Shown here piece after piece: positions 48,401 through 51,400 of a DNA stretch of 64,000 bases (positions are counted from its first letter, which is position 1; each line of letters starts with the position of its first letter). This DNA comes from Escherichia coli (GTDB taxonomy: Bacteria > Pseudomonadota > Gammaproteobacteria > Enterobacterales > Enterobacteriaceae). The DNA is taken from the NCBI RefSeq assembly GCF_003334355.1, contig NZ_QOWP01000024.1. One strand, 5' to 3'. A program made the position numbers.

Positions 48401-51400
48401 CGGCCGGTGGAGTTGTCATAAAAGCCGGGGAAGTTATTGCCCGTATTCATATGTATAAAATTGCCACGTTAGGAAGCGGAAATCCGCGTAATTTTACGTG
48501 GAATATTATTTCAAATAACAGTGTTGTTATGCCAACAGGCGGCTGCACTGTTGATAGTCGTAATGTCACCGTGAATCTCCCGGACTTTCCTGGAAGCGCA
48601 GAAATCCCCCTTGACGTATATTGCTCAAGTGAACAAAAGCTCTCATTTTATCTTTCGGGTGCCACCACTGACAGTGCCCGACAAGTGTTTGCTAACACAG
48701 CACCAGATGCAACAAAAACATCGGGAGTGGGTGTCTCTCTGATGCGTAATGGAAAAATACTGGCTACGGGAGAAAATGTCTCCTTGGGGACAGTAAATAA
48801 AAGCAAAGTACCTCTGGGTTTAAGCGCAACCTATGGACAAACAGGGAACAAAGTTTCAGCCGGAACCGTCCAGTCAGTCATTGGTGTCACTTTTATCTAT
48901 GAATAATTGTGATTTTGACCTTAGTCTATGCGCTCCATTCACGAAAATTGCGCGGATAATTATTTTGTGAAAGCTATTATCCTACACCTGTAAGAAAATC
49001 CGCGCACAATTGAAGCCAGAGTCTTATTTTTTATATTAAAAAATATGTTAATTTAAACACTATGAGAGATGATGCTTACCTTATCGTATTTAATCTATTG
49101 TTAAACGATAATAGATTAAAAATAGAAAGAGAGTAGTCCCCTACTCTTATATATCCATGTTGGCGATAATCCCTTTGTATGTACTGTGCATCATCGCTAT
49201 TACAAATCCTAATAATTCATTTCCACACAGGATAAGTAGATGAAGAAAAAAATTGAATCCTACCAGGGTGCTGCCGGTGGTTGGGGTGCTGTTAAATCCG
49301 TAGCGAATGCAGTACGTAAGCAGATGGATATACGCCAGGATGTTATTGCCATGTTTGACATGAATAAGCCAGAGGGCTTTGACTGTCCGGGTTGTGCATG
49401 GCCAGATCCTAAGCACAGTGCGTCATTCGACATTTGTGAAAACGGCGCAAAAGCAATCGCCTGGGAAGTCACGGATAAGCAGGTAAACGCCTCTTTCTTT
49501 GCTGAGAATACGGTTCAATCATTACTTACCTGGGGAGACCACGAGCTTGAGGCTGCGGGGCGACTCACTCAGCCTTTGAAATATGATGCCGTCAGCGACT
49601 GTTACAAGCCATTAAGCTGGCAACAAGCTTTCGATGAAATTGGCGCACGCCTTCAAAGCTATAGTGATCCCAATCAGGTTGAATTCTATACTTCGGGCCG
49701 CACTTCCAATGAAGCTGCCTTTCTTTATCAGCTTTTTGCCCGTGAATACGGGAGCAATAACTTTCCCGACTGCTCCAACATGTGCCATGAACCGACAAGC
49801 GTGGGTTTGGCAGCGAGTATCGGTGTAGGTAAAGGGACCGTGTTGCTGGAAGACTTTGAGAAGTGCGATTTAGTCATTTGCATTGGGCATAACCCTGGTA
49901 CAAACCACCCTCGCATGCTGACTTCGTTGCGCGCTTTAGTGAAACGGGGAGCGAAAATGATCGCCATCAATCCTCTACAGGAACGTGGCCTGGAGCGATT
50001 TACTGCACCGCAAAACCCGTTTGAAATGCTGACGAACTCTGAGACTCAGTTGGCCAGTGCCTACTATAACGTGCGCATTGGTGGTGATATGGCGTTGCTC
50101 AAGGGGATGATGCGCCTGTTAATTGAGCGCGATGATGCTGCAAGCGCCGCAGGTCGGCCCTCATTGCTGGATGACGAATTTATTCAAACGCATACCGTCG
50201 GCTTTGACGAGCTACGCCGTGACGTTCTCAATTCCGAGTGGAAAGATATCGAACGTATTTCTGGATTAAGTCAGACTCAAATCGCCGAACTGGCTGATGC
50301 ATATGCCGCTGCCGAACGAACCATTATCTGTTACGGAATGGGGATCACTCAGCACGAACATGGTACCCAGAATGTACAGCAACTGGTCAATCTGCTGTTG
50401 ATGAAAGGTAACATTGGCAAGCCTGGTGCGGGTATCTGCCCACTACGTGGCCACTCTAATGTACAGGGCGACCGAACCGTCGGTATCACCGAGAAACCGT
50501 CTGCAGAGTTTCTGGCTCGCCTGGGTGAGCGCTATGGCTTCACACCACCTCAAGCACCTGGACATGCTGCAATTGCCAGCATGCAAGCAATATGTACAGG
50601 GCAGGCTCGAGCATTGATCTGCATGGGGGGCAACTTTGCACTGGCAATGCCAGATCGGGAAGCGAGCGCTGTACCGTTAACGCAATTAGATCTGGCGGTA
50701 CACGTAGCCACTAAGCTTAACCGCTCTCATCTGCTGACCGCACGGCATAGCTATATTCTGCCGGTTCTGGGACGTAGCGAGATTGACATGCAAAAAAGCG
50801 GTGCGCAGGCGGTAACCGTTGAGGATTCAATGTCGATGATTCATGCCTCGCGTGGCGTGTTAAAACCCGCCGGTGTAATGCTGAAATCAGAGTGTGCAGT
50901 GGTCGCGGGAATCGCGCAGGCAGCACTACCCCAGAGCGTGGTAGCCTGGGAGTATCTGGTGGAAGATTATGATCGCATTCGCAATGACATTGAAGCTGTG
51001 CTGCCAGAGTTCGCCGATTATAACCAGCGCATCCGACATCCTGGTGGTTTTCACCTGATAAACGCTGCTGCTGAAAGGCGCTGGATGACTCAGTCAGGTA
51101 AGGCTAATTTCATTACCAGCAAAGGGCTGTTAGAAGATCCCTCTTCAGCGTTTAACAGTAAGCTGGTCATGGCGACAGTACGCAGCCACGATCAGTACAA
51201 CACGACGATTTATGGTATGGATGATCGCTATCGAGGGGTATTCGGTCAACGAGATGTGGTCTTTATGAGTGCTAAACAAGCTAAAATTTGCCGTGTAAAA
51301 AACGGCGAAAGAGTTAATCTTATTGCGCTTACGCCAGACGGTAAGCGCAGCTCACGCCGCATGGATAGATTAAAAGTGGTCATTTACCCTATGGCTGACC

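What the first reader, a model, noticed from the sequence alone, without database searches (positions are those of the whole stretch)
48981..48997. Shared 17-bp motif CCTACA-NN-TGTAAGAAA upstream of ydeP
The same motif occurs upstream of safA-ydeO at 51640-51656 with only the 2-bp spacer differing (cc versus gc). It resembles the EvgA inverted-repeat box, and both ydeP and safA-ydeO are recalled as direct EvgA targets. Here it lies about 245 bp upstream of the ydeP start, implying a long leader.
Basis: partly seen in the sequence, partly recalled or inferred. Interest (0 to 1): 0.35.

Follow-up and report, generated by a model that had tools for sequence, protein, structure and literature searches.

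The report
Known EvgA operator at ydeP and safA
The repeated 17-base motif is real. It is the already-described binding site of the acid-stress regulator EvgA in front of two E. coli acid-resistance operons, so it is correct but ordinary.

Summary
CCTACA-NN-TGTAAGAAA occurs exactly twice in the 64-kb window, at 48981-48997 and 51640-51656, and in none of 100 shuffles. The window is E. coli. The sites lie in the ydeQ-ydeP and ydeP-safA intergenic regions. Each is the core of an 18-bp inverted repeat (48979-48996, 51638-51655), one mismatch from TTCYTACA-N2-TGTARGAA. That consensus also marks the emrK/evgA, frc, yfdX (two sites) and yegR upstream regions of K-12, all EvgA-induced genes. Held papers state that EvgA directly regulates ydeP and binds the safA-ydeO promoter. 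Across eight Escherichia lineages the half-sites are kept, while the 2-bp spacer and the flanks vary. The "long leader" is also right. A published ydeP leader of 178 nt puts the start at 49062, 8 nt after a conserved extended -10 (TGnTAATTT), and the box centre near -74.5.

One addition: the similarity runs about 80 nt past the box without gaps (53/94 identical; null 24±4). The two promoters are therefore paralogous cassettes with the same spacing from box to -10.

Verdict: already known, low interest. The consensus string is recalled from memory, because the primary papers are not in the library.

The parts
48979..48996 (.). EvgA box of the ydeP promoter: ATCCTACA-CC-TGTAAGAA. It is an 18-bp imperfect inverted repeat whose centre lies about -74.5 from the ydeP start.
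   Evidence: In 8 Escherichia lineages the half-sites are conserved; variation falls in both spacer bases, one flanking base and one half-site base.
51638..51655 (.). EvgA box of the safA-ydeO promoter: TGCCTACA-GC-TGTAAGAA.
   Evidence: The half-sites are invariant in 8 lineages, including one that is only 84% identical overall; only spacer base 2 and the flanks vary.
49046..49054 (+). Predicted extended -10 element of the ydeP promoter, TGtTAATTT. There is no good -35.
   Evidence: TG and the hexamer are kept and the N position varies in the 84%-identical lineage L042, which reads TGcTAATTT. One E. coli strain, L127, has TAACTT. The element lies at the same offset from the box as the safA -10. 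It ends 8 nt before the literature-derived start.
49062..49239 (+). ydeP 5' leader, 178 nt, predicted to be structured. The transcription start is inferred at A49062.
   Evidence: [quoted passage not shown] RNA fold z = -3.56. There is no Rfam match.
51705..51713 (+). Predicted extended -10 element of the safA-ydeO promoter, TGtTATATT. The predicted start is near 51718-51721, giving a leader of about 47 nt.
   Evidence: This is an inference by register with ydeP; no start-site data were available.
48979..49077 (+). ydeP copy of the paralogous promoter cassette, running from the box through about +16 of the transcript.
   Evidence: 53 of 94 positions after the box are identical to the safA copy without gaps. 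The null is 24.1±4.4, with a maximum of 43 over all window offsets. Local alignment z = 8.3. The repeat finder family D1.
51638..51736 (+). safA copy of the paralogous promoter cassette.
49240..51519 (+). ydeP coding sequence (acid-resistance oxidoreductase), the gene driven by the first box.
51767..52800 (+). The safA (51767-51964) and ydeO (52039-52800) coding sequences, the operon driven by the second box.
   Evidence: PMC9496106.

Best explanation
The two motifs are the operators ("EvgA boxes") through which the phosphorylated NarL-family response regulator EvgA activates the ydeP and safA-ydeO promoters under mild acid.

An EvgA dimer binds the 18-bp inverted repeat TTCYTACA-N2-TGTARGAA, centred about 74.5 bp upstream of the transcription start. 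It activates sigma-70 RNA polymerase at a promoter that has an extended -10 (TGnTAnnTT) but no usable -35. Activation would work either by a class-I-type contact or by cooperative spreading of further EvgA dimers toward the -35 region, as its homologue BvgA does.

Shown here: the motif itself, its non-random occurrence, its presence at six other sites upstream of EvgA-regulon genes, the conservation pattern (half-sites kept, spacer free), and the fixed spacing to a conserved -10.

Taken from the literature: direct regulation and binding by EvgA, and the 178-nt ydeP leader.

Inferred: the exact start sites, the position -74.5, and the mode of contact with polymerase.
For: The motif occurs exactly twice, against 0 in 100 shuffles.

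Both sites match the 18-bp consensus with 1 mismatch, and no other site in the 64-kb window matches within 3 mismatches.

The same consensus occurs in the K-12 evgA region at four intergenic sites: emrK/evgA, frc upstream and yfdX upstream (two sites). That is 4 matches against 0.28 expected. It also occurs upstream of yegR.

PMC3720670 places EvgA-bound inverted repeats upstream of yfdX and yfdW (frc). PMC8174306 says ydeP is directly regulated by EvgA. PMC9496106 says EvgA binds the safA-ydeO promoter. PMC4283999 says the EvgA site is found at all direct targets and not at other induced genes.

In the conservation analysis, the half-sites are invariant, apart from one A-to-G change that also occurs in the emrK/evgA site. 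The spacer and flanks vary, and the sequence upstream of the ydeP box is scrambled by indels.

A conserved extended -10 lies at the same offset, 53 nt after the box, in both promoters. -10-like hexamers lie at offsets 52-57 in emrK, frc, yfdX and yegR.

The literature leader of 178 nt places the start 8 nt after that -10.

evgA is present in 5399 of 5426 complete E. coli genomes, and the ydeP upstream region in 5328.
Against: No binding or footprint data could be read directly. The primary papers (Masuda & Church 2003; Itou et al. 2009; Kato et al. 2000) are not in the library, so the consensus string rests on my memory plus the enrichment tests run here.

A box centred at -74.5 is far from polymerase, and the activation contact is not established.

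Both sites deviate from the consensus in the outer two bases of the left arm (AT and TG instead of TT).

Because the two promoters are paralogous, their near-identity (16 of 17) is not two independent observations.
Confidence: 0.93

Rival explanations
1. The shared motif is only a relic of a local duplication of a promoter segment. On this view the box is part of a roughly 100-bp duplicated cassette, and its repetition says nothing about a transcription factor.
For: The similarity extends about 80 nt beyond the box without gaps, so the two copies share ancestry or a common template.
Against: The same inverted repeat occurs at non-homologous promoters of the same regulon (emrK, frc, yfdX, yegR). 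There the flanks are not significantly similar. Within the cassette the box is the best-conserved block: 16 of 17 identical between the copies, against 56% downstream. Positions shared by the two paralogues vary about three times less among orthologues than unshared ones (14/98 vs 25/64, p = 6e-4), which points to function rather than a decaying relic. Duplication and EvgA binding are compatible; only the claim of no function is rejected.
Confidence: 0.03
2. The inverted repeat is the operator of a different regulator active at these promoters, such as another NarL/FixJ-family protein like RcsB, or GadE, YdeO or H-NS.
For: The TAAGAA half-site resembles the RcsB half-site as I recall it. H-NS binds the ydeP and ydeO promoter fragments (PMC2984483). 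The region is AT-rich.
Against: As recalled, the RcsB box has its TAAGAA arms in the opposite relative orientation. H-NS does not recognise a discrete 18-bp palindrome. The set of loci carrying the motif coincides with the EvgA regulon, including evgA's own divergent promoter region. Papers attribute direct control to EvgA.
Confidence: 0.03
3. The motif occurs twice by chance.
For: The exact 17-mer does turn up as single chance hits in unrelated genomes across 298 Gb. About 555 such hits are expected.
Against: There were 0 matches in 100 shuffles of the window, and about 0.009 are expected per E. coli genome. Both copies are intergenic, co-oriented, and placed at the same distance from a -10 element. 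None of the 120 scan stretches had two copies.
Confidence: 0.005

Closest known systems
EvgA boxes of the E. coli EvgA regulon (emrK/evgA, frc (yfdW), yfdX, yegR). The 18-bp consensus TTCYTACA-N2-TGTARGAA is recalled from Masuda & Church 2003 and Itou et al. 2009.
   Same: Same 18-bp inverted repeat, with 1 mismatch at each site. Same intergenic position upstream of an EvgA-induced gene. -10-like hexamers lie 52-57 nt after the box in all of them. ydeP and safA (b1500) are themselves members of the published set.
   Different: Nothing essential. The outer left-arm bases are AT and TG instead of TT. ydeP and safA also share about 80 nt of downstream promoter sequence, which the other members do not share significantly.
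BvgA operators of Bordetella pertussis, for example the fha promoter. BvgA is the closest characterised homologue of EvgA (PMC9496106); the site details are from memory.
   Same: Both regulators belong to the NarL family. The inverted heptads TTTCYTA resemble the EvgA half-site TTCYTA(CA). The primary site lies well upstream of -35.
   Different: In Bordetella, several BvgA dimers spread cooperatively from the primary site to the -35 region. Whether EvgA does this at ydeP and safA was not tested. The conserved blocks between the box and -10 (T.CG..CA, TGAAG, AGTCYTATTT) match EvgA half-sites only weakly.
RcsB box (another NarL/FixJ-family operator in E. coli; recalled from memory)
   Same: Contains the TAAGAA/TTCTTA half-site core, and the proteins share a family.
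   Different: The arms have the opposite relative orientation and a different spacing. The loci carrying the present motif are the EvgA regulon, not the Rcs regulon.

Membership tests
EvgA box (operator of the EvgS/EvgA regulon) | An 18-bp inverted repeat matching TTCYTACA-N2-TGTARGAA | tested here: met
   48979-48996 and 51638-51655 each have 1 mismatch. No other site in 64 kb matches within 3 mismatches. The consensus string itself is from memory, not from a held paper.
EvgA box (operator of the EvgS/EvgA regulon) | Lies in the promoter region of a gene induced by EvgA | tested here: met
   Both sites are intergenic and upstream of ydeP and safA-ydeO. Both are described as direct EvgA targets in PMC8174306, PMC9496106 and PMC11210196.
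EvgA box (operator of the EvgS/EvgA regulon) | The same motif recurs at the other direct targets and is otherwise rare | tested here: met
   emrK/evgA, frc, yfdX (two sites) and yegR all carry it: 4 matches against 0.28 expected in 20 kb, and 1 against 0.16. All hits are intergenic. PMC4283999 reports the same. No whole-genome E. coli scan was obtained.
EvgA box (operator of the EvgS/EvgA regulon) | Physical binding by EvgA (gel shift or DNase I footprint) and loss of induction when the site is mutated | not testable with these tools
   Only secondary statements are available. Itou et al. 2009, Masuda & Church 2003 and Kato et al. 2000 could not be read.
EvgA box (operator of the EvgS/EvgA regulon) | Conservation pattern of a dimer operator: half-sites constrained, central spacer free | tested here: met
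   Eight lineages were compared. At ydeP both spacer columns vary, 1 of 15 half-site columns varies, and the upstream flank is scrambled. At safA 1 spacer column varies and 0 of 15 half-site columns.
EvgA box (operator of the EvgS/EvgA regulon) | Fixed position relative to the core promoter | tested here: inconclusive
   The spacing from box to -10 is identical in ydeP and safA, and -10-like hexamers lie at offsets 52-57 in the four others. Only the ydeP start has outside support, and ydeP and safA are paralogous.
BvgA-type multi-dimer activation | Secondary, lower-affinity regulator sites between the primary site and -35 | tested here: inconclusive
   The blocks between the box and -10 are conserved in all 16 sequences but resemble half-sites only weakly. 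No binding data exist.

The most novel reading that the evidence does not exclude
The ydeP and safA-ydeO promoters are two copies of one roughly 100-bp EvgA-dependent promoter cassette, running from the box to about +16. The positions the copies share between the box and the -10 (T.CG..CA, TGAAG, AGTCYTATTT) are under purifying selection. This would mean two things. The regulon grew by copying a whole promoter rather than by evolving a new box. And these blocks are further functional contacts, for example BvgA-like secondary EvgA sites or polymerase alpha-subunit contacts. I could not find either point described in the papers available to me.
Probability: 0.3. Interest if true: 0.3.

Novelty: already known. 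Interest (0 to 1): 0.1.

Why it matters
It matters little as a discovery. The site, the regulator and both target operons have been textbook parts of the E. coli EvgS/EvgA-YdeO-GadE acid-resistance cascade since 2003-2009. The check is useful as a positive control for the scan, because a reader with no tools recovered a genuine operator pair and its long leader from raw sequence.

The one modest addition is that the two promoters are paralogous over about 100 bp, and the positions they share are selectively constrained. This gives a concrete set of bases to mutate to learn how an activator centred at -74.5 reaches RNA polymerase.

Tried and rejected
(1) I scanned one genome per species for the exact 17-mer. 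It did not return the E. coli representative, so it cannot serve as the whole-genome E. coli scan. It did yield one useful divergent Escherichia locus, L042. The Citrobacter, Pantoea and Providencia hits share no homology with this locus.

(2) Primary papers were not held or the service was busy. Searching for the consensus as a text string found nothing relevant.

(3) The promoter scan proposed TTGAAG-16-TATATT at 49010-49037. I rejected it. Its -10 is not conserved in L042, it has no counterpart in safA, and it does not fit the 178-nt leader.

(4) I considered a leaderless small ORF starting at the ydeP start, ATG 49062. I rejected it because six of the seven other sequences compared have a stop at codon 6 (GCTTAAC/GCTTAAT against GCTTACC here).

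(5) An Rfam search of 48850-52100 gave no match.

(6) A profile of the 16 cassette copies found no further significant copy in the window or at other EvgA promoters (best E about 0.4). The ydeP-yegR and frc-yfdX similarities are marginal (p about 0.05).

(7) The idea of a second EvgA dimer site at 49001-49018 rests on only 9 of 16 matches in ydeP and fewer in safA. It remains speculation.

Full report
**Observation.** The pattern CCTACANNTGTAAGAAA occurs exactly twice in the window. Both copies are on the + strand, at 48981-48997 (spacer CC) and 51640-51656 (spacer GC). None of 100 dinucleotide-preserving shuffles produced a single match. The sequences were read directly. A motif with 15 specified bases is expected about 0.009 times in a 4.6-Mb genome on both strands, so two copies 2659 nt apart are not chance.

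**Context.** The stretch 48850-49300 is 100% identical to E. coli strain PSS-12 and is present in 5328 of 5426 complete E. coli genomes. RefSeq annotation of that strain, transferred to window coordinates, gives:
- ydeQ at 47992-48906
- ydeP at 49240-51519
- safA at 51767-51964
- ydeO at 52039-52800

All four are on the + strand. The first motif therefore ends 243 nt before the ydeP ATG, and the second ends 111 nt before the safA ATG. Both lie in intergenic DNA.

**What the motif is.** Each copy is the core of an 18-bp imperfect inverted repeat: ATCCTACA-CC-TGTAAGAA at 48979-48996 and TGCCTACA-GC-TGTAAGAA at 51638-51655. Each is one mismatch from TTCYTACA-N2-TGTARGAA, and nothing else in the 64 kb matches within three mismatches.

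I recall that consensus from Masuda & Church 2003 and Itou et al. 2009. Neither paper is in the library, so I tested it independently:
- In 20 kb of K-12 around evgAS it hits four times, against 0.28 expected. All four hits are intergenic: between emrK and evgA, upstream of frc (a perfect match), and twice upstream of yfdX.
- In 20 kb around yegR it hits once, 107 nt upstream of yegR.

These are genes that held papers describe as EvgA-activated, with EvgA-bound inverted repeats drawn upstream of yfdX and yfdW (frc) (PMC3720670).

Other held papers support direct control by EvgA:
- ydeP and emrKY are directly regulated by EvgA (PMC8174306).
- EvgA binds the safA-ydeO promoter (PMC9496106).
- An EvgA site is found at all known direct targets but not at other genes induced in a constitutive evgS mutant (PMC4283999).

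evgA itself is present in 5399 of 5426 complete E. coli genomes.

**Conservation.** I aligned both intergenic regions from seven E. coli strains and from one divergent Escherichia genome, L042, which is only 84% identical across ydeP-ydeO.
- At ydeP, both spacer columns vary (CC, CT, TC), and so does the base before the box. One half-site base changes in L042 (TACA to TACG), and the same variant is seen in the K-12 emrK/evgA site. The sequence upstream of the box is broken up by indels.
- At safA, the half-sites are invariant, and only the second spacer base and the flanks vary.

This is the pattern expected of a dimer operator.

**Promoter anatomy and the long leader.**
- Both boxes are followed at the same offset by a conserved extended -10: TGtTAATTT at 49046-49054 and TGtTATATT at 51705-51713. 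In L042 both read TGc..., so the N position drifts while TG and the hexamer are kept. One E. coli strain (L127) has TAACTT at ydeP.
- There is no recognisable -35.
[quoted passage not shown] This places the start at A49062, 8 nt after that -10, and the box centre at about -74.5.
- By register, the safA start is predicted near 51718-51721, giving a leader of about 47 nt. This is inference only.
- The generic promoter scan proposed TTGAAG-16-TATATT at 49010-49037. I reject that proposal because its -10 is not conserved and does not fit the leader length.
- -10-like hexamers also lie 52-57 nt after the box at emrK, frc, yfdX (proximal box) and yegR. This suggests a common architecture.

**Mechanism.**
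- Shown here: the motif, its specificity, its conservation pattern and its fixed spacing.
- From the literature: EvgA binds and directly activates both promoters in response to mild acid through EvgS.
- Inferred: an EvgA dimer at -74.5 activates sigma-70 polymerase at an extended -10 promoter that lacks a -35. It would do so either by a class-I-type contact or by cooperative binding of further dimers toward -35, as described for its homologue BvgA (recalled, not tested).
- H-NS also binds these promoter fragments (PMC2984483), so anti-silencing may contribute.

**Beyond the finding.** The similarity between the two sites is not confined to the box.
- Downstream of the box the two sequences align without gaps, and 53 of 94 positions are identical. 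Random offsets in the window give 24.1±4.4, with a maximum of 43 among about 64,000 offsets. The local alignment z-score is 8.3, and the repeat finder reports the first 49 nt as a 78% direct repeat.
- Upstream of the box, identity is at background (25%).
- The shared segment ends about 16 nt into the transcript.
- Positions identical between the two copies vary less among the eight orthologues than positions that differ: 14/98 against 25/64, Fisher p = 6e-4. The sequences are phylogenetically related, so this is indicative only.
- A profile of the 16 copies finds no further significant copy in the window or at other EvgA promoters.

The two promoters therefore look like paralogous cassettes whose shared bases are functional. 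I could not establish whether this has been noted before.

**Rivals.**
- Chance is excluded.
- A functionless duplication relic is contradicted by the occurrence of the box at non-homologous regulon promoters and by the selective constraint.
- A different regulator (RcsB, GadE, YdeO, H-NS) is unlikely. The loci carrying the motif are the EvgA regulon, including evgA's own divergent promoter region, and the RcsB box as I recall it has the opposite arm orientation.

**What did not work.**
Almost all were single chance hits in unrelated taxa, and about 555 such hits are expected in 298 Gb. None had two copies. It is not a valid whole-genome E. coli scan.
- Rfam found nothing in 48850-52100.

**Verdict.** The feature is the already-known EvgA operator pair of the ydeP and safA-ydeO promoters. 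Interest is low. The only modestly new points are the promoter paralogy over about 100 bp and a predicted structured ydeP leader.

Noticed in passing
window 48979-49077 and 51638-51736: The ydeP and safA promoters are similar far beyond the 17-bp box. After the box, 53 of 94 positions are identical without gaps (null 24±4.4). Blocks conserved in all 16 sequences examined include TCCG, TGAAG, AGTCYTATTT, TGnTAnnTTAA and GAT. Positions shared by the two paralogues vary about three times less among orthologues than unshared ones (p = 6e-4).
   Followed up: yes
window 49062-49239: The 178-nt ydeP leader is predicted to be structured (MFE -40.9 kcal/mol, z = -3.56). A long-range helix pairs 49065-49075 with 49188-49198; both strands are invariant in 7 Escherichia sequences. 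It encloses hairpins at 49089-49120 and 49129-49148. The only changes are one-sided and G.U-compatible, with no compensatory pairs. There is no Rfam family. CsrA is reported not to bind it (PMC11210196).
   Followed up: partly
window 51533-51563; L042 3077-3108: A 12-bp stem with a 7-nt loop lies 14 nt after the ydeP stop and has no U-tract. In the divergent Escherichia genome L042 the stem is unchanged, but the loop is reverse-complemented (CATCCGC here, ACGGATG there). This is a hairpin-loop inversion. It is relevant to whether ydeP transcripts read through into safA-ydeO.
   Followed up: partly
L130 (K-12 2158000-2178000) about 10332-10349 on the - strand, compared with window 49051-49068: The yegR promoter, another EvgA target, shares ATTTAAACACTA-GAGAG (17 of 18) with the ydeP -10/start region, at an offset from its box that differs by 4 nt. 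frc and yfdX share AAATG...CTCTCTGATT at the same offset from their boxes. Both similarities are marginal (about 5% of shuffles score as well).
   Followed up: partly
window 48934-48954 and 51582-51602: A 21-nt element lies upstream of both boxes but in opposite orientation. It is 76% complementary, with the 10-mer CGCGCAATTT exact. It is conserved within E. coli but not in the safA region of L042. It may be chance.
   Followed up: no
L001 1-2023 (strain PSS-12, identical to the window over 48850-49300); corresponds to about window 44850-46872: The fimbrial usher gene ydeT is annotated as a truncated pseudogene next to an IS3-family transposase, as in K-12. Other strains carry a full-length usher gene at this position.
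   Followed up: no
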